Sequence record: MT542512
Strand: one strand, 5' to 3'
Length of the DNA stretch: 39,461 nucleotides
Origin: Escherichia phage PhiV-1
Shown: one piece after another, positions 2,982-39,024 of the stretch
Numbering within the stretch: position 1 is the stretch's first letter
Layout of the letters: each line of letters opens with the position of its first letter
Notes under the pieces: model-generated
Told to the model about the DNA's origin: nothing
The model's database searches: none
Seen by the model: only the letters and a program-made list of their open reading frames with translations
Made by a program: the position numbers and the translations under genes

Positions 2982-5633
2982 ATGACTAACGTAATCAACG
3001 CACCAAAGAACGACTTCTCTGACATCGCTAACGCAATCCAGCCGTACAACATTCTGGCTGACCATTACGGCGCACAGCTTGCAGCTACGCAGTTACAGCT
3101 TGAGCACGAAGCACACACCGAGGGCGAGAAGCGTTTTCTTAAGGCAATGGAACGTCAAATCAAAGCGGGTGAGTTCGGTGATAACGCAGTGGCTAAACCG
3201 CTCCTGTCATCTCTCGCACCGAAGTTCATCGAGGCGTGGAACACTTGGTTCACCGAGGTGGAAGCGAAGCGTGGCAAGCGTCCAGTAGCCTACAATCTGG
3301 TACAGAAGGTTGCACCTGAAGCGGCCGCTTTCATCACACTGAAGGTCACACTCGCTTGCTTGACGAAAGAAGAGTTCACCAACCTGCAATCGGTCGCCAC
3401 TAAGATTGGTCGCAGTATTGAGGATGAACTGCGTTTTGGTCGCATCCGTGACGAAGAAGCGAAGCACTTTAAGAACCACGTACAGGAGGCACTGAACAAG
3501 CGCGTTGGTATCGTCTACAAGAAAGCATTCATGCAAGCCGTAGAAGGCAAGATGTTAGACGCTGGTCAACTGCAAACCAAGTGGACTACATGGACACCTG
3601 AAGAATCAATTCACGTTGGTGTGCGCATGTTGGAACTGCTCATCGGGTCTACTGGTCTCGTTGAGTTACACCGACCGTTTGCTGGTAACGTTGAGAAGGA
3701 TGGCGAGTACATCCAGTTAACAGAACAATATGTAGACCTGCTATCCAAACGTGCTGGCGCACTGGCTGCAATCGCTCCGATGTATCAGCCTTGCGTGGTC
3801 CCTCCGAAGCCTTGGACTTCTCCGGTTGGTGGTGGCTATTGGGCTGCTGGTCGCAAGCCTCTCTCTCTGGTTCGCACTGGTAGCAAGAAGGGACTTGAGC
3901 GTTACAACGATGTGTATATGCCTGAAGTCTACAAGGCGGTGAACATCGCACAGAATACTCCTTGGAAGATTAACAAGAAGGTTCTGGCAGTGGTCAACGA
4001 GATTGTGAACTGGAAGCATTGCCCGGTTGAAGATGTTCCTGCTCTGGAACGTGGTGAACTGCCTGTCAAACCTGATGACATTGACACCAACGAGGCATCG
4101 CTCAAAGCGTGGAAGAAAGCGGCCTCCGCAATCTACCGCAAAGAGAAGGCACGAGTGTCTCGTCGTATGAGCATGGAGTTCATGTTAGGTCAGGCCAATA
4201 AGTTCGCACAGTTTAAAGCTATCTGGTTCCCGATGAACATGGACTGGCGCGGCCGAGTGTATGCGGTCCCAATGTTTAACCCGCAAGGCAACGACATGAC
4301 CAAAGGCTTGCTGACGCTCGCTAAAGGTAAACCAATCGGTGTCGATGGGTACTACTGGCTGAAGATTCACGGTGCTAACACTGCTGGTGTGGACAAGGTG
4401 GACTTCGCTGAACGCATCAAGTTCATTGATGACAACCACGAGAACATCATGAGCGTTGCGGCTGACCCGATTGCTAACACTTGGTGGGCTGAACAAGACT
4501 CTCCGTTCTGCTTCCTCGCGTTCTGCTTTGAGTATGCGGGAGTCCAGCATCACGGGATGAACTACAACTGCTCTTTACCGCTGGCGTTCGATGGCTCTTG
4601 CTCTGGTATTCAGCACTTCTCCGCAATGCTCCGCGATGAGGTCGGTGGTCGTGCGGTTAACCTGCTTCCAAGCAAAGAGGTACAAGACATCTACCGCATC
4701 GTTGCTGAACGTGTGAACGAGATTATGCAACAGGACGTAATCAACGGAACTGATAACGAAGTGGAAACTGTTATCAACAAGGACACTGGAGAAATCACTG
4801 AGAAGCTCAAGCTGGGTACGAAGGAACTGGCGGGTCAATGGTTGGCCTACGGTGTGACTCGCAAGGTCACTAAGCGTTCGGTCATGACGTTGGCTTACGG
4901 CTCCAAAGAGTATGGCTTCCGTGACCAAGTTCTTGAGGACACAATTCAGCCAGCTATCGACGATGGCAAGGGCTTGATGTTCACTCAACCGAACCAAGCG
5001 GCTGGCTACATGGCTAAACTGATTTGGAATGCTGTAACGGTCACAGTTGTCGCAGCGGTTGAAGCGATGAACTGGTTGAAGTCTGCTGCTAAACTTCTGG
5101 CTGCTGAAGTCAAGGACAAGAAGACCAAAGAGGTTCTCCGCAAGCGTTGCGCAGTACATTGGGTAACTCCTGATGGCTTCCCTGTGTGGCAGGAATACAA
5201 GAAGCCAGTACAGACCCGCTTGAATCTGATGTTCTTAGGCCAGATTCGTCTACAGCCTACCGTGAACACCAACAAGGATAGCGGGATTGATGCTCGTAAA
5301 CAGGAGTCAGGCATCGCACCTAACTTTGTCCACTCAATGGATGGAAGCCACCTGCGCATGACCGTGGTTCGCTCCAATGAGGTCTACGGTGTGGAATCGT
5401 TCGCACTGATTCACGACTCCTTTGGTACTATCCCTGCTGATGCTGGCAACCTGTTTAAAGCAGTGCGTGAAACGATGGTCAACACTTACGAAGAGAACGA
5501 TGTACTTGCAGACTTCTATGAGCAATTTGCTGACCAGTTGCACGAATCACAGCTTGACAAGATGCCTGAGATGCCAGCTAAAGGTTCTCTGGACCTGCAA
5601 GAAATCCTTAAGTCAGACTTTGCGTTTGCCTAA
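2982..5633 (+). CDS. 1: Single-subunit DNA-dependent RNA polymerase
   Basis: 883 aa; co-linear with T7 RNAP as recalled; motifs LAFDGSCSGIQH and HDSFGT; specificity loop R746/N748/R756/Q758 identical to T7. Confidence 0.98.
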   Translation: MTNVINAPKNDFSDIANAIQPYNILADHYGAQLAATQLQLEHEAHTEGEKRFLKAMERQIKAGEFGDNAVAKPLLSSLAPKFIEAWNTWFTEVEAKRGKRPVAYNLVQKVAPEAAAFITLKVTLACLTKEEFTNLQSVATKIGRSIEDELRFGRIRDEEAKHFKNHVQEALNKRVGIVYKKAFMQAVEGKMLDAGQLQTKWTTWTPEESIHVGVRMLELLIGSTGLVELHRPFAGNVEKDGEYIQLTEQYVDLLSKRAGALAAIAPMYQPCVVPPKPWTSPVGGGYWAAGRKPLSLVRTGSKKGLERYNDVYMPEVYKAVNIAQNTPWKINKKVLAVVNEIVNWKHCPVEDVPALERGELPVKPDDIDTNEASLKAWKKAASAIYRKEKARVSRRMSMEFMLGQANKFAQFKAIWFPMNMDWRGRVYAVPMFNPQGNDMTKGLLTLAKGKPIGVDGYYWLKIHGANTAGVDKVDFAERIKFIDDNHENIMSVAADPIANTWWAEQDSPFCFLAFCFEYAGVQHHGMNYNCSLPLAFDGSCSGIQHFSAMLRDEVGGRAVNLLPSKEVQDIYRIVAERVNEIMQQDVINGTDNEVETVINKDTGEITEKLKLGTKELAGQWLAYGVTRKVTKRSVMTLAYGSKEYGFRDQVLEDTIQPAIDDGKGLMFTQPNQAAGYMAKLIWNAVTVTVVAAVEAMNWLKSAAKLLAAEVKDKKTKEVLRKRCAVHWVTPDGFPVWQEYKKPVQTRLNLMFLGQIRLQPTVNTNKDSGIDARKQESGIAPNFVHSMDGSHLRMTVVRSNEVYGVESFALIHDSFGTIPADAGNLFKAVRETMVNTYEENDVLADFYEQFADQLHESQLDKMPEMPAKGSLDLQEILKSDFAFA

Positions 5634-5640
5634 CGGAATC

Positions 5641-5663
5641 TAATACGACTCACTAGTGGGAGA
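5641..5663 (+). promoter_or_regulatory. Phage RNAP promoter (phi1.1A position)
   Basis: TAATACGACTCACTAGTGGGAGA followed by AT-rich ctttaag x3 region. Confidence 0.7.
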
Positions 5664-5723
5664 CCCTTGGGGTTTCCCTACTTTAAGATAACTTTAAGTT
5701 TAACTTTAAGAGGAAACATAATC

Positions 5724-6281
5724 ATGTTTACTTTCATCACTTCAGTAGGCGCTCTCGTATCAACAATTCTTGCAGCAACATACTATAATCGTTCAAAGGT
5801 ATTTCTCACTAAGCTAATCAAAGAAGAGAAGAACTCTCATGCACTCAAAGAGAGACTTGAAGATGGATGGCGAGAGAAGCAGGAACTAGCTGGTCGAATC
5901 CGTACCTTAGAGTTCGAACAACAATACGACATGTCGAACCAACGAGAACTCATTGAGCGTCTACGCGCTGAGGCAGTGGAGTACCGCAAGGAACTTAAAG
6001 AGGCAAAGAGTACCATCCGTGAGTACACTCACAGTGACATCACGTCTATCAAGTTTACCGCTCACATCCCGGATGCTGGGTGGAAGCGCACTGAGTTCAA
6101 GCTGGGTATAGGGTCTTGTGGCAAAGAGGTTACATGTTTGCACTGGAAAGAACAGTCGGACCGCTATCTGCTGACACAGACGTGCACTGACGGTGAGCGC
6201 AAAGAGTTCACCTATTATAAGAAAGATGTAGCTGGTCGCATTGAGATTGCACGTAAGGTTGCAGACAATACGACTCACTAA
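5724..6281 (+). CDS. Hypothetical membrane-anchored coiled-coil protein (T3 gene 1.05 position)
   Basis: 185 aa from ATG 5724 with RBS gagga and tttaactttaag enhancer; the track ORF start at 5667 lies inside the promoter; N-terminal TM helix, central coiled coil, Cys-containing C-terminus. Confidence 0.6.
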   Translation: MFTFITSVGALVSTILAATYYNRSKVFLTKLIKEEKNSHALKERLEDGWREKQELAGRIRTLEFEQQYDMSNQRELIERLRAEAVEYRKELKEAKSTIREYTHSDITSIKFTAHIPDAGWKRTEFKLGIGSCGKEVTCLHWKEQSDRYLLTQTCTDGERKEFTYYKKDVAGRIEIARKVADNTTH

Positions 6282-6288
6282 TGGGAAA
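6266..6288 (+). promoter_or_regulatory. Phage RNAP promoter (phi1.1B position)
   Basis: CAATACGACTCACTAATGGGAAA; overlaps stop codon of upstream ORF. Confidence 0.7.
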
Positions 6289-6296
6289 CACTGAAA

Positions 6297-6340
6297 GTTA
6301 AACTCAAGGTCATCACTGCATGGTGGCCTTCATGATTAAC
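6297..6340 (+). promoter_or_regulatory. RNase III-type processing hairpin (R1.1 position)
   Basis: gttaaactcaaggtcatca / tggtggccttcatgattaac; 10-bp stem with G-U wobbles. Confidence 0.55.
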
Positions 6341-6372
6341 TGTCAACGATACTACCAAGAGGAAACAACATT

Positions 6373-6522
6373 ATGCGTACCAACTTTGAACCAACCACTA
6401 AGCGCAACAACGTAATCAACGAACACGGTGCTGAATGGCAGGAACGTAAAGACCGCATGAAGAAACGCCACAAGACACAACGTGGCAACGCTGAGAAACG
6501 TAACTGGAAGGAGGCACTCTAA
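6373..6522 (+). CDS. 1.1: Small basic protein gp1.1
   Basis: 49 aa (below track threshold); MRTNFEPTTKRNN... resembles recalled T7 gp1.1; stop overlaps 1.2 start. Confidence 0.6.
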   Translation: MRTNFEPTTKRNNVINEHGAEWQERKDRMKKRHKTQRGNAEKRNWKEAL

Positions 6523-6794
6523 TGGGTCGCTTATATAGTGGTAACTTAATGGCGTTAAAGGATGTCATCGAGAGACTTAAAGAAGACCACGATGTCAGTG
6601 TTGTAACTGAGACTTTCCGCTATGAGAACTACGCACAGCGCCGATGGGTCTCCGGTGAGACTCTCCGCATTGTTCTACGCAATGGCCTCGTACTGACATC
6701 CAAGTGTTTCGAACAGTCAGACGAAGATGTCCGGTGCAATGCACAGACTGAGTGGCTCCGCAAGGTACACGCAGACCTGAAGCACTGGAAGTAA
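6522..6794 (+). CDS. 1.2: Inhibitor of host dGTP triphosphohydrolase
   Basis: 90 aa; MGRLYSGNL... N-terminus and DEDV...W...DLKHWK C-terminus as in T7 gp1.2. Confidence 0.8.
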   Translation: MGRLYSGNLMALKDVIERLKEDHDVSVVTETFRYENYAQRRWVSGETLRIVLRNGLVLTSKCFEQSDEDVRCNAQTEWLRKVHADLKHWK

Positions 6795-6814
6795 TACGAC
6801 TCACTAATGCGAAA
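6792..6814 (+). promoter_or_regulatory. Phage RNAP promoter (phi1.3 position)
   Basis: TAATACGACTCACTAATGCGAAA (C at +2). Confidence 0.6.
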
Positions 6815-6816
6815 GA

Positions 6817-6861
6817 GTTAAACTAAAGGTCATCCATAATACGGTGGCCTTTGTGATTAAC
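6817..6861 (+). promoter_or_regulatory. RNase III-type processing hairpin (R1.3 position)
   Basis: gttaaactaaaggtcatc / ggtggcctttgtgattaac. Confidence 0.55.
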
Positions 6862-6898
6862 TTTTGACTACTTAATAACCAACAATAGGAGTTCCATC

Positions 6899-7930
6899 AT
6901 GGAAATCACATTCAAGACTAACCCTTTTAAAGCTGTATCCTACGTTGAGTCTGCCATTAAGAAAGCACTCGACAAAGCTGGCTACCTGATTGCTGACACT
7001 AAGCATGATGGTGTACGTGGTAACATCGTGGTTGACAATACGGCTGACTGCCTGTGGCTATCCCGTGTCTCCAAGACCATCCCCGCGCTTGAGCACCTCA
7101 ATGGGTTCGACCAACGCTGGGCTAATGTTCTCAAAGATGACCGCTGGATTTTCCCTGATGGCTTCATGCTGGATGGTGAACTGATGGTCAAAGGCGTAGA
7201 CTTCAACACAGGGTCTGGCCTACTGCGTACCAAGTGGCTCAAGAAGACAAACTGTGGATTTGATATTGGTGGAGTAGAGCCTCTCAAGGGGAGTAAAGTA
7301 GACTTCTGCCTAGACCCTAAGAAACTTAAGGTTGTCCTGTATGCCGCTATGCCGTATCACGATATGGTAGAAGGCAAAGAGTACGGCGTTATGTCCCTCC
7401 TGATGCAAGAGCATGTGCGTTCCCTCATTCCGGTTCTTAGTGAACACTTCCCGGAAATCACATGGGAACTCTCTGAGGCCAAAGAAGTATACGACATGGT
7501 AGAACTTCAGGAACTCTACGAGAAAGCCCGTGCCGATGGTCATGAAGGTCTGGTCGTCAAAGACCCGCTGGAAGTCTACAAGCGTGGCAAGAAGTCTGGC
7601 TGGTGGAAGATGAAGCCTGAGAATGAAGCTGATGGTATTATCGTTGGTATCAATTGGGGGACTAAAGGTCTCGCTAATGAAGGCAAAGTTATTGGCTTCG
7701 AGGTTCTCTTGGAGTCCGGTCGTGTAGTCTCTGCCAACAACATTAGTCAAGCATTGATGGATGAGTTTACCGCTGCCGTCAAACATGCTGAGTCTGTGGG
7801 TATGGGTATGCCGTACACTGGCTTCGCCTGTCAGGTAGCCTACATGGAGGAAACTCCTGATGGTTCTCTTCGTCACCCATCGTTCGTTATGTTCCGTGGT
7901 GTCGAGTCAGACCCAACGGTCAAGATGTAA
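6899..7930 (+). CDS. 1.3: ATP-dependent DNA ligase
   Basis: 343 aa; KxDG adenylation motif (TKHDGVRG); strong match to recalled T7 ligase. Confidence 0.95.
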   Translation: MEITFKTNPFKAVSYVESAIKKALDKAGYLIADTKHDGVRGNIVVDNTADCLWLSRVSKTIPALEHLNGFDQRWANVLKDDRWIFPDGFMLDGELMVKGVDFNTGSGLLRTKWLKKTNCGFDIGGVEPLKGSKVDFCLDPKKLKVVLYAAMPYHDMVEGKEYGVMSLLMQEHVRSLIPVLSEHFPEITWELSEAKEVYDMVELQELYEKARADGHEGLVVKDPLEVYKRGKKSGWWKMKPENEADGIIVGINWGTKGLANEGKVIGFEVLLESGRVVSANNISQALMDEFTAAVKHAESVGMGMPYTGFACQVAYMEETPDGSLRHPSFVMFRGVESDPTVKM

Positions 7931-7940
7931 GTAAATCAAT

Positions 7941-7975
7941 GGTCAGTCCTTAGCGGGGCTGGCCTTTTGCGTTTC
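7941..7975 (+). terminator. Intrinsic terminator for host RNAP (TE position)
   Basis: ggtcagtcc-ttagc-ggggctggcc hairpin followed by ttttgcgtttc, immediately after ligase as in T7. Confidence 0.5.
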
Positions 7976-35415: not shown

Positions 35416-35625
35416 ATGTTGTCATTGGATTTTAACAACGAGGTAGTGAAGGCTGCTCCGATTGTAGGGACAGGGGTTGCCGATGGTGCTTCCAGACTGT
35501 TCTTCGGCCTATCACTTAACGAGTGGTTTTATGTAGCCGCAATTGCCTACACAGTGGCTCAAATTGGTGCCAAGGTAGTCGACGTGGTTATCAAATGGAA
35601 GAAGGAGGGTAGAGATGTCGGATAA
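35416..35625 (+). CDS. 17.5: Holin (class II)
   Basis: 69 aa; MLSLDFNNE..KAAPIVGTGVAD...RLFFGLSLNEWFYVAAIAYTV.QIGAKVVD near-identical to recalled T7 gp17.5. Confidence 0.9.
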   Translation: MLSLDFNNEVVKAAPIVGTGVADGASRLFFGLSLNEWFYVAAIAYTVAQIGAKVVDVVIKWKKEGRDVG

Positions 35626-35881
35626 ATCTTTGATTCAATTCCTTGAGATGCTGGACACTGAGATGGCTCAACGTATGCTTGCTGACTTGCAGAACGATGA
35701 ACGCCGTACACCTCAACTGTACAACGCAATCGGGAAACTGTTAGAACGCCACAAGTTCCAAGTCTCCAAGTTACAGCCAGACCGTAACATCCTTGGTGGA
35801 CTGGCAGATGGACTTCAGGAGTATCAGAACCTAGTAGGTGACGATGGTCTCACTGAAGATGAGAAGTACACGCTGAACTGA
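35615..35881 (+). CDS. 18: Terminase small subunit
   Basis: 88 aa; DKSLI.FLEMLDT.MAQRMLADL...ERR.PQLYNAI.KLL.RHKFQ..KLQPD..ILGGLA as in T7 gp18. Confidence 0.9.
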   Translation: MSDKSLIQFLEMLDTEMAQRMLADLQNDERRTPQLYNAIGKLLERHKFQVSKLQPDRNILGGLADGLQEYQNLVGDDGLTEDEKYTLN

Positions 35882-35885
35882 TGGA

Positions 35886-35925
35886 ATAACTCAAGGCCAC
35901 TACATCTAGTGGTCTTTATGATATT
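35886..35925 (+). promoter_or_regulatory. RNase III-type processing hairpin (R18.5 position)
   Basis: aaggccacta-catc-tagtggtctt 10-bp stem then tatgatattt. Confidence 0.5.
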
Positions 35926-35979
35926 TCAACACAACTCACGGTGACGCTACGTGAAATCTGAAAATACGGGAGGGTAGTT

Positions 35980-36423
35980 ATGCTCAAGAATTTAAAGAGC
36001 TACGTCATAATCGCTGCGTTTGCCTTGGGGATGACCCTTGCGTACAACCACGGCTATGACAAGGCTAACACTAAATGGGAACAGGAGGTGCACAATGAGT
36101 ACGTTAAGAAAGTTAAGGCGACTGAGGATAAACAGGCTGCTATCAACGAAGTCTCACGACAATACCAAGAAGACCTTGCGGCGCTGGAAGGCAGCACTGA
36201 TAGGGTCATTAATGATTTGCGTAACGATGGTAAGCGGCTGCGTGTCAAACTATCAGCCACCTCACGAGAACTCCAAGCTAACGGTGGATGCCTCGTTGAT
36301 GGTCGAGCCGAACTTGACGAAGAGTTTAGTAAGCGTCTTATCGGAGTAACACAAAGAGGGGATGCGTGGATTAAAGCGCTCCAAAATACAATAACTGAAA
36401 TGCAATCTAAGAAGGAGAAATAA
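35980..36423 (+). CDS. 18.5: i-spanin (Rz-like)
   Basis: 147 aa; N-terminal TM (YVIIAAFALGMTLAY) plus coiled coil; matches T7 gp18.5 position. Confidence 0.9.
   Translation: MLKNLKSYVIIAAFALGMTLAYNHGYDKANTKWEQEVHNEYVKKVKATEDKQAAINEVSRQYQEDLAALEGSTDRVINDLRNDGKRLRVKLSATSRELQANGGCLVDGRAELDEEFSKRLIGVTQRGDAWIKALQNTITEMQSKKEK
36095..36349 (+). CDS. 18.7: o-spanin (Rz1-like lipoprotein) embedded in +1 frame of Rz
   Basis: 84 aa from ATG 36095 (RBS aggaggtg); lipobox-like VSGC; SLMVEPNLT as in T7 gp18.7. Confidence 0.75.
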   Translation: MSTLRKLRRLRINRLLSTKSHDNTKKTLRRWKAALIGSLMICVTMVSGCVSNYQPPHENSKLTVDASLMVEPNLTKSLVSVLSE

Positions 36424-38868: not shown

Positions 38869-39024
38869 GGCACCCTAAGACAACTTAAAGACACTTAAAG
38901 ACTGCATATGCAAAGTGCATACTTAGTGACTACTCTTAGAGACCCTTACAGTGAGGTATGATGGTAATAGTAATTACATCCCTACTATCAGTGTAACCAT
39001 CAAGTATAACAAGGAGGACGCTCT

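What the first reader, a model, noticed from the sequence alone, without database searches (positions are those of the whole stretch)
5641..6288. Membrane-anchored coiled-coil ORF sandwiched between the paired origin promoters
In T7 the phi1.1A and phi1.1B promoters are adjacent and precede the primary origin. Here they are about 625 bp apart and bracket a 185-aa ORF (5724-6281). The ORF has an N-terminal TM helix, a long coiled coil, a C-terminal region with three Cys, and a gene-10-like leader (tttaactttaagagga). The phi1.1B promoter core overlaps the ORF's last codons. The TM-plus-coiled-coil architecture resembles i-spanins or membrane-targeting host-takeover proteins, but function is unknown.
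Basis: partly seen in the sequence, partly recalled or inferred. Interest (0 to 1): 0.6.

Follow-up and report, generated by a model that had tools for sequence, protein, structure and literature searches.

The report
Known T3-type gene 1.05 membrane protein
The ORF is real, but it is the already annotated, dispensable "gene 1.05" of T3/BA14-type phages: a small conserved domain of unknown function on a coiled-coil stalk, anchored in the inner membrane and probably facing the cytoplasm. It is an ordinary accessory gene, not a spanin and not a new origin feature.

Summary
Two consensus phage-RNAP promoters start 625 bp apart (+1 at 5658 and 6283) and bracket a 185-aa ORF (5724-6281). The ORF has an N-terminal hydrophobic helix, a helix of about 80 residues with heptad periodicity, a six-strand C-terminal domain and three Cys. 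Its last 16 nt lie inside the second promoter.

None of this is new. The window is a Berlinvirus-like T7-group phage. The same gene and both promoters are annotated in BA14, Kvp1 and 285P as gene 1.05, phi1.05 and phi1.1. The C-terminal domain is Pfam PF25755 (Phage_T3_1_05, E=1e-29). It occurs in 583 phage records, alone (T3, 90 aa) or fused to TM and/or coiled-coil modules (KP32 "fusion protein").

The gene is under strong purifying selection (dN/dS about 0.08) yet dispensable. FE44 and RN5i1 lack a 649-bp cassette bounded by 11-nt RBS repeats. T7 has nothing between phi1.1A and phi1.1B.

Charge distribution, and relatives with no signal peptide, point to an N-out/C-in topology. That argues against an i-spanin-like role; the real spanin is at 35980-36423.

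No solved structure, defence-system model or paper gives a function. My best inference is a membrane-tethered, cytoplasm-facing accessory host-takeover or counter-defence protein.

The parts
2982..5633 (+). Gene 1, phage RNA polymerase (883 aa). Its stop codon lies 25 nt before the +1 of the first promoter.
5641..5663 (+). Promoter phi1.05 (TAATACGACTCACTAGTGGGAGA), +1 at 5658. It is positionally equivalent to T7 phi1.1A.
   Evidence: Exact pattern match. Annotated as phi1.05 at the same offset, 83 nt before the ATG, in BA14 and Kvp1.
5658..5678 (+). 5' stem-loop of the phi1.05 transcript (GGGAGACCCUUGGGGUUUCCC).
   Evidence: Fold. The same element follows other promoters of the window and T3 phi1.05.
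5680..5710 (+). Three ACTTTAAG repeats (5680-5687, 5691-5698, 5703-5710) in an AT-rich leader (75-78% AT).
   Evidence: Similar to the T7 phi1.1B leader.
5708..5718 (+). AAGAGGAAACA: the Shine-Dalgarno region of gene 1.05, and the left copy of an 11-nt direct repeat.
5724..6281 (+). Gene 1.05 CDS, 185 aa.
5727..5786 (+). N-terminal transmembrane helix (residues about 2-21), predicted N-out/C-in.
5796..6029 (+). Coiled-coil stalk (residues about 25-102). Its sequence is variable and it is exchanged between phages as a module.
6033..6257 (+). T3-gp1.05 domain (PF25755), residues 104-178, six beta-strands. Family-wide invariant residues are F125, L127, G128, G130, C132, G133, V136, Q152, K160, F162, Y164, G171 and R172.
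6266..6288 (+). Promoter phi1.1 (CAATACGACTCACTAATGGGAAA), +1 at 6283. It overlaps the last 16 nt of gene 1.05 and is positionally equivalent to T7 phi1.1B.
6292..6345 (+). R1.1-type (RNase III-like) hairpin in the gene 1.1 leader.
   Evidence: Fold. Similar hairpins follow phi1.3 here, T3 phi1.1 and T7 phi1.1A. Cleavage was not tested.
6357..6367 (+). AAGAGGAAACA: the Shine-Dalgarno region of gene 1.1, and the right copy of the 11-nt direct repeat. The segment 5719-6367 (649 bp) is absent from FE44 and RN5i1.
6373..6522 (+). Gene 1.1 (49 aa), followed by gene 1.2 (6522-6794) and the ligase gene 1.3 (6899-7930).
7941..7964 (+). TE-like intrinsic terminator after the ligase gene. It places gene 1.05 inside the early (host-RNAP) transcription unit as well.
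   Evidence: The comparison with T7 TE rests on my own knowledge.

Best explanation
The ORF is gene 1.05 of a Berlinvirus-type T7-group phage. It is a non-essential accessory protein made early and in the middle of infection. Two transcript sources are expected: read-through host-RNAP early transcripts, which end at the TE-like terminator after the ligase gene, and phage-RNAP transcripts from phi1.05, which carry a strong leader.

The protein has three modules:
(1) An N-terminal helix that inserts into the inner membrane with only 1-3 residues outside (N-out/C-in).
(2) A helix of about 80 residues with heptad periodicity. It probably oligomerises the protein and acts as a stalk of about 11 nm.
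(3) The T3-gp1.05 domain, a six-stranded beta module of about 75 residues that is nearly invariant across the family. Its conserved polar residues cluster in a glycine-rich F-K-L-G-x-G-P/S-C-G-K-x-V hairpin loop and in Q152, K160, Y164 and R172.

Inferred mechanism. The C-terminal domain is the working part and binds a conserved cytoplasmic partner or small ligand. In T3 it acts as a free protein. In this variant it is held as an oligomer at the cytoplasmic face of the membrane. There it would sequester, relocate or block its target, as part of host takeover or counter-defence.

What is shown: identity, layout, coding status, purifying selection, dispensability and modular architecture. What is inferred: topology (from the positive-inside rule and from relatives without a signal peptide), oligomerisation, and the binding or sequestering role. 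The target is unknown.
For: Identity and layout.
- 93-96% nucleotide identity to P483, 285P, BA14 and Kvp1.
- BA14 and Kvp1 annotate phi1.05, gene 1.05 ('fusion protein with gene 1.05'; 'similar to C-terminus of T3 gene 1.05') and phi1.1 at the same offsets.
- PF25755 matches residues 106-176 with E=1.2e-29. PHROGs 8103 and 6440 match and have no known function.

Coding and selection.
- dN/dS is 0.07-0.09.
- SD and leader are present.
- A TE-like terminator lies downstream of the ligase gene.

Architecture.
- AF2 gives helix 2-102 plus six strands 106-177, mean pLDDT 88. The domain alone gives pLDDT 83.
- Heptad periodicity is present.

The domain is the conserved working part.
- Over 465 pairs, median identity is 85% in the domain against 24% in the N-terminal half. 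P0007 is 100% against 27%.
- Thirteen residues are at least 90% conserved across 156 sequences, among them C132, Q152, K160, Y164 and R172.
- The domain occurs alone (T3, 90 aa), with a TM only, with a coiled coil only, or with both.

Topology.
- There is no K/R before the TM helix in nearly all TM-bearing clusters (one exception, P0036) and 1-6 K/R after it.
- Domain-only relatives have no signal peptide.

Accessory status.
- FE44 and RN5i1 lack a 649-bp cassette bounded by 11-nt repeats.
- T7 has only 75 bp between its two promoters.
- P694 carries a second gene 1.1-1.2 pair (dGTPase inhibitor) in the same slot.
- In more distant Autographiviridae the domain gene lies elsewhere in the early region.
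Against: - No partner or ligand is identified.
- The topology rests on sequence rules only.
- A weak profile match to extracellular Ig-like (Big_13-type) repeats (hhalign 85.7%), together with the partly conserved second Cys (C154, 60%), would fit a periplasmic domain better.
- The near-invariance of the domain among close relatives could partly reflect recent recombination rather than functional constraint. However, synonymous divergence in the domain is substantial (dS 0.39-0.52).
Confidence: 0.5

Rival explanations
1. Replication organiser, working like phi29 p16.7. A membrane-anchored, coiled-coil dimer or oligomer uses its C-terminal domain to hold phage DNA or replisome components at the membrane, next to the origin-like promoter/AT-rich region that it is encoded beside.
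For: - It has the same three-part architecture (N-terminal TM, coiled coil, small C-terminal domain facing the cytoplasm) as phi29 p16.7. p16.7 is a membrane protein that recruits TP and ssDNA to the membrane (PMC4974454; its architecture is from my own knowledge).
- The gene lies directly downstream of a promoter plus an AT-rich ACTTTAAG leader that resembles the T7 phi1.1B origin leader.
Against: - The domain is not basic. Mean net charge is +0.6, range -5 to +7, over 156 sequences.
- T3 and many other phages have the domain with no membrane anchor.
- In distant phages the gene is not near the RNAP or origin region.
- T7, FE44 and RN5i1 lack the gene.
- There is no sequence or fold similarity to p16.7.
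Confidence: 0.12
2. Periplasm-facing membrane protein (N-in/C-out). This covers an i-spanin-like or envelope-acting protein, or a superinfection-exclusion factor whose Ig-like domain sits in the periplasm and is stabilised by a C132-C154 disulfide.
For:
- Profile-profile comparison gives 85.7% probability to tandem Ig-like repeats of an extracellular C25-peptidase protein. phmmer also hits PKD-rich proteins.
- Two Cys are conserved among close relatives.
Against: - There is no positive charge before the TM in nearly all TM-bearing clusters (one exception, P0036), and there are 1-6 after it. The real i-spanin of this window has K3 and K6 before its TM and an embedded o-spanin ORF with a lipobox.
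- Domain-only relatives and coiled-coil-only relatives have no signal peptide.
- C154 is only 60% conserved family-wide.
- The gene lies in the early/class II region, not the lysis region.
Confidence: 0.08
3. Small-molecule or nucleotide binder, a special case of the best explanation. The invariant glycine-rich GxGxCGK hairpin and the Q/K/Y/R cluster would form a pocket for a nucleotide-type ligand, for example an immune second messenger. The protein would then act as a membrane-proximal sponge against a defence system with membrane effectors.
For: - The pattern of invariant polar and glycine residues is typical of a binding site rather than of a fold core.
- It is a small, oligomer-prone, early, accessory phage protein.
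- The same genomic slot holds an extra dGTPase-inhibitor pair in P694.
Against: There is no similarity to known sponge families or to any PADLOC model. The motif argument is by analogy only. No ligand was tested.
Confidence: 0.12
4. The ORF has no function of its own. It would be a spacer, or a by-product of the regulatory region (promoters, leader, RNase III site).
For: The gene is dispensable in nature. Its last four codons are dictated by the promoter.
Against: - dN/dS is 0.07-0.09 with dS up to 0.52.
- The domain is conserved in 583 phage records and 129 clusters at 50% identity.
- AF2 models it with confidence.
- It has a strong RBS and leader.
Confidence: 0.02

Closest known systems
Gene 1.05 of phages BA14, Kvp1 and 285P (Berlinvirus); GenBank ACF15732.1 and ACJ14549.1
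   Same: Same gene: 185 aa, about 95% amino-acid identity. It has the same flanking promoters (annotated phi1.05 and phi1.1), the same 16-nt overlap with phi1.1, and the same neighbours (gene 1 upstream; 1.1, 1.2 and 1.3 downstream).
   Different: Only point differences. BA14 and Kvp1 differ from the window at 8-9 non-synonymous sites.
Phage T3 gp1.05 (NP_523302; Pfam PF25755 Phage_T3_1_05)
   Same: The C-terminal domain is homologous, with the F-K-L-G-x-G-P-C-G-K, Q, K-x-F-x-Y and G-R-I-E motifs. The position is the same, between phi1.05 and phi1.1. The leader is the same type (5' hairpin plus ACTTTAAG repeats), and an R1.1-type hairpin follows phi1.1.
   Different: T3 gp1.05 is 90 aa and consists of the domain only, with no TM helix and no coiled coil. 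It is about 47% identical in the domain. Its function is equally unknown.
Klebsiella phage KP32 'fusion protein' (Przondovirus, 186 aa)
   Same: Same three-module architecture and the same position after the RNAP gene. The domain is 52-56% identical, and the predicted structures superpose with TM-score 0.84.
   Different: The N-terminal TM and coiled-coil sequence is unrelated at the sequence level. The protein is uncharacterised.
T7 phi1.1A/phi1.1B promoter pair and primary origin
   Same: Two phage promoters lie between gene 1 and gene 1.1, at equivalent distances from those genes. The same two leader elements are present: an R1.1-type hairpin and an AT-rich ACTTTAAG leader.
   Different: T7 has 75 bp and no ORF between the two promoters. 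The order of the two leader elements is reversed. Origin function was not tested here.
phi29 p16.7 (membrane organiser of phage DNA replication)
   Same: Works-like analogy only: an N-terminal TM anchor, a coiled coil and a small cytoplasmic C-terminal domain, in an early gene (PMC4974454; my own knowledge).
   Different: There is no sequence or fold relationship. The p16.7 domain is helical and binds DNA, whereas this one is all-beta and not basic.
T7-type i-spanin gp18.5
   Same: A single N-terminal TM followed by a long helical region.
   Different: The charge bias, and hence the predicted topology, is opposite. This gene has no embedded o-spanin and lies in the early region. The genuine gp18.5/18.7 pair is present elsewhere in the window.

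Membership tests
Pfam PF25755 Phage_T3_1_05 (T3 gene 1.05 protein domain) | Score above the Pfam gathering threshold (27 bits) over the whole model. | tested here: met
   102.5 bits, E=1.2e-29, model positions 2-72 of 73, residues 106-176.
Pfam PF25755 Phage_T3_1_05 (T3 gene 1.05 protein domain) | The family's conserved motifs are present (F-x-L-G-x-G-x-C-G, Q, K-x-F-x-Y, G-R). | tested here: met
   All 13 positions that are at least 90% conserved in 156 family sequences are kept in the window protein.
Gene 1.05 of T3/Berlinvirus-type phages (positional orthologue) | Located between gene 1 (RNAP) and gene 1.1, with a phage promoter before it and the next promoter at or over its stop codon. | tested here: met
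i-spanin (Rz/gp18.5 type) | Type II topology: N-in, with the bulk of the protein in the periplasm. | tested here: not met
   There is no K/R before the TM and there are 4 K/R within 15 residues after it. The same bias holds across the TM-bearing family clusters with one exception, P0036. This is a sequence-rule prediction only.
i-spanin (Rz/gp18.5 type) | A partner o-spanin lipoprotein gene that is embedded, overlapping or adjacent, within the lysis cassette. | tested here: not met
   There is no lipobox ORF in or next to 5724-6281. The holin, i-spanin and embedded lipoprotein ORF are at 35416-36423.
phi29 p16.7-like replication organiser | N-terminal TM plus coiled coil plus C-terminal cytoplasmic domain. 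| tested here: met
   This concerns architecture only.
phi29 p16.7-like replication organiser | A C-terminal domain that binds DNA and terminal protein; homology to p16.7. | tested here: not met
   The domain is all-beta and near-neutral. There is no PDB sequence or fold match to p16.7. Binding itself cannot be tested here.
T7 primary origin of replication | Replication initiates at a phage promoter followed by an AT-rich segment. | not testable with these tools
   Only sequence resemblance could be assessed. The phi1.05 leader (64% AT overall, 75-78% AT over 5680-5739) resembles the T7 phi1.1B leader (71% AT).
Ig-like / Big_13 / PKD beta-sandwich domains | Significant profile similarity and a beta-sandwich fold. 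| tested here: inconclusive
   [not shown]
Known anti-phage defence or anti-defence protein families | A match to a PADLOC model or to a solved anti-defence protein. | tested here: not met
   No PADLOC hit at E up to 1. No PDB hit.

The most novel reading that the evidence does not exclude
The T3-gp1.05 domain would be an unrecognised binding module: a small beta-barrel whose invariant GxGxCGK hairpin and Q/K/Y/R cluster form a ligand or protein pocket. T7-like phages would deploy it in several formats (free, coiled-coil oligomer, membrane-tethered) to neutralise a conserved host factor or immune signal at the cytoplasmic face of the inner membrane. The wholesale swapping of the TM/coiled-coil module onto an unchanged domain would reflect selection on where and in what oligomeric state the inhibitor acts. 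This would define a new anti-host or anti-defence family present in hundreds of therapeutic-type Klebsiella, E. coli, Salmonella and Yersinia phages.
Probability: 0.15. Interest if true: 0.65.

Novelty: already known. Interest (0 to 1): 0.25.

Why it matters
As a genome feature it does not change anything. The gene, its promoters and its 'fusion' nature have been in GenBank annotations of BA14, Kvp1 and 285P since about 2008, and the domain has its own Pfam entry.

What remains open is the function of a domain carried by more than half of the T7-like phage records matched here: 583 records carry the domain, out of 1029 matched by the left half of the genome. Many of these are Klebsiella, Salmonella and E. 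coli phages considered for therapy.

Three points from this work make that question more tractable:
- The topology is predicted to face the cytoplasm.
- There is a short list of invariant residues to mutate.
- Natural deletion variants exist (FE44, RN5i1, T7) that differ by a clean 649-bp cassette.

Tried and rejected
- Sequence search of the full protein against PDB chains: only chance hits, E above 0.4. A profile of 43 domain sequences against PDB: best E=1.3.
- Foldseek against PDB: nothing below E=0.1. Foldseek against BFVD: only uncharacterised Autographiviridae relatives. The afdb50 library was not available.
- PADLOC: no hit. NCBIfam: no meaningful hit. Other Pfam hits (HIP1_clath_bdg, UPF0242) lie in the coiled coil, below threshold, and were disregarded.
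- Literature searches for 'gene 1.05', 'gp1.05', 'phi1.05', 'PF25755' and 'Berlinvirus'+'1.05' returned only genome-annotation tables or nothing. The Kiljunen 2005 paper on non-essential phiYeO3-12 genes is not held.
A back-translated FKLGLGPCGK pattern scan of bacterial genomes found one Sphingobium contig, where the domain-only ORF lies in what I read from the ORF list as a prophage-like context (not checked further). It gave no functional clue.
- I tested whether TM-less variants carry an N-terminal amphipathic membrane-targeting helix. Hydrophobic moments are not above shuffles in 15 of 16 cases, so the idea was dropped.
- I tested whether the domain is basic, as expected for nucleic-acid binding. 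It is not.
- I considered that gene 1.05 is lost by recombination between the two promoter copies. That is rejected: the junction in FE44 and RN5i1 lies in the 11-nt RBS repeat, and those phages keep the phi1.05-type promoter and leader.
- The minus-strand ORF at 5961-6278 and the TTG-5667 start were considered and dismissed. There are no homologues that start there, and the purifying-selection signal (low dN/dS) was measured in the plus-strand frame from ATG 5724.
Full report
**What is in the sequence**

The window is a complete T7-group phage genome. Its left 20 kb is 92-94% identical to Berlinvirus-type phages such as 285P, ErnstBeyeler, CarlSpitteler and SPLA4. The finding's region, 5600-6400, is 93-96.5% identical to P483, nasanit, 285P, BA14 and Kvp1.

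The pattern AATACGACTCACTANNGGGA occurs 14 times at up to 3 mismatches, all on the + strand, against 0.01 expected. Two exact copies lie at 5642-5661 and 6267-6286. With T7 numbering the promoters are 5641-5663 and 6266-6288, with +1 at 5658 and 6283, so they are 625 bp apart.

Between them lies an ORF from ATG 5724 to TAA 6281, encoding 185 aa. It is preceded by AAGAGGA, 9 nt upstream. The leader has a 5' stem-loop (GGGAGACCCUUGGGGUUUCCC) and three ACTTTAAG repeats. The last 16 nt of the ORF are promoter positions -17 to -2, so the C-terminal N-T-T-H-stop is dictated by the promoter core.

- The hydrophobic N-terminus has a mean Kyte-Doolittle value of 1.74 over residues 1-19.
- The Cys residues are at 132, 138 and 154.
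- AF2 models a single helix over residues 2-102. Residues 25-102 show 3.5-residue periodicity; 1.1% of shuffles reach it.

**It is a real gene**

Against the BA14 and Kvp1 orthologues, dN/dS is 0.07-0.09 in both halves of the gene. dS reaches 0.39-0.52 in the C-terminal part.

A TE-like terminator follows the ligase gene at 7941-7964. By analogy with T7 (my own knowledge), gene 1.05 therefore lies inside the early host-RNAP transcription unit, and it also has its own phage promoter.

**It is already annotated**

BA14 (EU734171) annotates promoter phi1.05, CDS '1.05' ('fusion protein with gene 1.05') and promoter phi1.1, at exactly the same offsets. Kvp1 annotates the same features and notes 'similar to C-terminus of gene 1.05 protein [T3]'. 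The Kvp1 paper lists gene 1.05 among the regions that differ from phage Berlin (PMC2579914).

Pfam PF25755 (Phage_T3_1_05) matches residues 106-176 at E=1.2e-29. PHROGs 8103, 6440 and 6379 match and all have unknown function.

T3 has the same layout: phi1.05, a 5' hairpin, ACTTTAAG repeats, gene 1.05, phi1.1 overlapping the stop codon, and an R1.1-type hairpin. Its gp1.05, however, is only 90 aa and consists of the domain alone.

**The family**

tblastn with the domain finds 583 phage records: Klebsiella 342, Escherichia 40, Salmonella 37, Yersinia 29 and others. An exhaustive HMMER search of 1.84 billion representatives finds 129 clusters at E of 1e-3 or below.

The architectures fall into four types:
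- TM plus coiled coil plus domain (about 160-200 aa; the domain starts at residue 90-120).
- TM plus domain (about 100-130 aa).
- Coiled coil plus domain, without a TM.
- Domain only (75-99 aa).

Across 156 sequences, 13 positions are at least 90% conserved: F125, L127, G128, G130, C132, G133, V136, Q152, K160, F162, Y164, G171 and R172. This gives the signature F-K-L-G-x-G-P/S-C-G-K-x-V ... Q-x-C-x-D-G-x-x-K-x-F-x-Y ... C154 is 60% conserved, and position 138 is usually Ala.

The N-terminal half behaves quite differently. Over 465 pairs of close relatives, median identity is 24% in residues 1-103 and 85% in residues 104-178. P0007 is 27% identical in the N-terminal half and 100% in the domain. 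At the DNA level the homology breakpoint falls at about window 6033, which is residue 104. The TM/coiled-coil module is therefore exchanged as a unit onto a constant domain.

**Topology**

In nearly every TM-bearing cluster there is no Lys or Arg before the hydrophobic helix (one exception, P0036), and there are 1-6 within the 15 residues after it. The window protein has R23, K25, K30 and K33. By the positive-inside rule this predicts N-out/C-in.

Independently, the domain-only and coiled-coil-only relatives have no signal peptide, so the domain works in the cytoplasm in those phages.

The window's own i-spanin (35980-36423) shows the opposite bias, with K3 and K6 before its TM. It contains an embedded ORF with a lipobox-like VSGC, next to the holin. 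The i-spanin comparison is therefore not supported.

**Dispensability and the cassette**

FE44 and RN5i1, both Berlinviruses, have a single promoter between gene 1 and gene 1.1. Alignment shows that they keep the phi1.05-type promoter, hairpin and ACTTTAAG leader. They then join gene 1.1 inside an 11-nt sequence, AAGAGGAAACA. In the window this sequence occurs twice, at 5708-5718 (RBS of 1.05) and 6357-6367 (RBS of 1.1).

The 649-bp segment between the repeats holds gene 1.05, phi1.1 and the R1.1-type hairpin. It is thus a cassette bounded by short direct repeats.

P694 carries a second gene 1.1-1.2 pair in the same slot. T7 has only 75 bp between phi1.1A and phi1.1B. In Pseudomonas phage G11 the domain gene lies just upstream of the RNAP gene. 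In the Melnykvirinae phages 25AhydR2PP and ISAO8 it lies among early hypothetical genes.

**Relation to the T7 origin**

The two promoters are positionally equivalent to T7 phi1.1A and phi1.1B. By sequence, however, the AT-rich ACTTTAAG leader after T7 phi1.1B matches the leader after the first promoter here, and the hairpin after T7 phi1.1A matches the one after the second promoter. The AT-rich segment after phi1.1B is the T7 origin segment by my own knowledge.

If the origin is conserved, it would lie upstream of gene 1.05 rather than downstream of the pair. This is inference only, and no tool here can map an origin.

**Structure and remote similarity**

The domain model has pLDDT 83 and six strands. 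It has no convincing match among solved structures:
- Foldseek against PDB gives E of 0.12 or higher.
- A domain profile against PDB sequences gives E of 1.3 or higher.
- BFVD returns only uncharacterised Autographiviridae proteins, including KP32 'fusion protein' and phiSG-JL2 Gp1.05 (TM-score normalised to the query, 0.70-0.84).

PADLOC and NCBIfam give nothing. The domain is not basic, with mean net charge +0.6.

**Mechanism**

Shown: the protein is an accessory, selected, early/middle-expressed protein made of a membrane anchor, a heptad-periodic stalk and a highly conserved C-terminal domain. That domain also exists as a free protein in other phages.

Inferred: the domain faces the cytoplasm. 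It is the functional unit and binds a conserved partner or ligand through its invariant glycine-rich hairpin and Q/K/Y/R cluster. The anchor and stalk set its location and oligomeric state. The likely biological role is host takeover or counter-defence.

I give about 0.9 to identity and architecture, about 0.75 to the cytoplasmic orientation, and about 0.35-0.4 to the sequestering, host-directed role.

The rivals are:
- A phi29 p16.7-like replication organiser (architecture analogy; PMC4974454). The neutral domain, the anchor-less relatives and the gene's absence from T7, FE44 and RN5i1 argue against it.
- A periplasmic or spanin-like role, which the topology evidence argues against.
- A nucleotide-sponge variant of the main model.
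- No function, which the selection data refute.

**Verdict**

The genuinely open item is the function of the PF25755 domain, which no tool or paper available here resolves.

Noticed in passing
window 5708-5718 and 6357-6367: An 11-nt direct repeat, AAGAGGAAACA (the RBS of gene 1.05 and the RBS of gene 1.1), bounds a 649-bp cassette holding gene 1.05, phi1.1 and the R1.1-type hairpin. Berlinviruses FE44 and RN5i1 lack exactly this cassette, and their junction lies inside the repeat.
   Followed up: yes
L006 (Escherichia phage P694) 1325-2205: In the slot where gene 1.05 sits in the window, P694 carries a second gene 1.1-1.2 pair, giving two dGTPase-inhibitor paralogues in tandem. The region between gene 1 and gene 1.1 appears to be an exchange site for accessory cassettes.
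   Followed up: partly
window 5658-5723 and 6283-6372; L012 (T7) 149-307: The two leader types are in the opposite order from T7. Here the order is promoter, AT-rich ACTTTAAG leader, gene 1.05, promoter, R1.1-type hairpin. In T7 it is phi1.1A, R1.1 hairpin, phi1.1B, AT-rich leader.
   Followed up: partly
window 5724-6032 versus 6033-6257; alignment A1: The TM/coiled-coil half is swapped as a module between phages while the domain stays nearly constant. P0007 is 27% identical in the first half and 100% in the domain; medians over 465 pairs are 24% and 85%. At least four or five unrelated N-terminal classes exist, including some without a TM.
   Followed up: yes
window 6267-6281: The C-terminal tetrapeptide N-T-T-H and the stop codon are encoded by the promoter core AATACGACTCACTAA and are conserved in most close homologues. 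Homologues ending in ...IKPTL probably overlap a promoter of different specificity. AF2 models this tail as disordered (pLDDT below 50).
   Followed up: partly
window about 490-530 and 38880-38910: ACTTAAAG repeats (three and two copies, about 11 nt apart) follow the terminal promoters at 425 and 38847. The motif is the near reverse complement of the ACTTTAAG repeats in the phi1.05, phi2.5 (9104) and phi6.5 (18078) leaders.
   Followed up: no
[not shown]
   Followed up: partly
L011 (Sphingobium sp. CCH11-B1 contig) 2702-2956: A domain-only homologue (the 85-aa protein P0153) lies in a bacterial genome contig. From the ORF list I read the context as prophage-like, though this was not checked further. 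It shows the domain is not strictly confined to lytic Autographiviridae.
   Followed up: no
window 6793-6815 and 6816-6870: The phi1.3 promoter has one mismatch in the initiation region (GCGA instead of GGGA). It is followed by a second R1.1-like hairpin (gttaaactaaaggtcatcc...ggtggcctttgtgattaac), presumably the R1.3 RNase III site.
   Followed up: no
window 35980-36423: This is the genuine i-spanin (147 aa, with K3 and K6 before its TM). It contains an embedded +1-frame ORF with a lipobox-like VSGC (o-spanin), downstream of the 69-aa holin at 35416-35625.
   Followed up: partly
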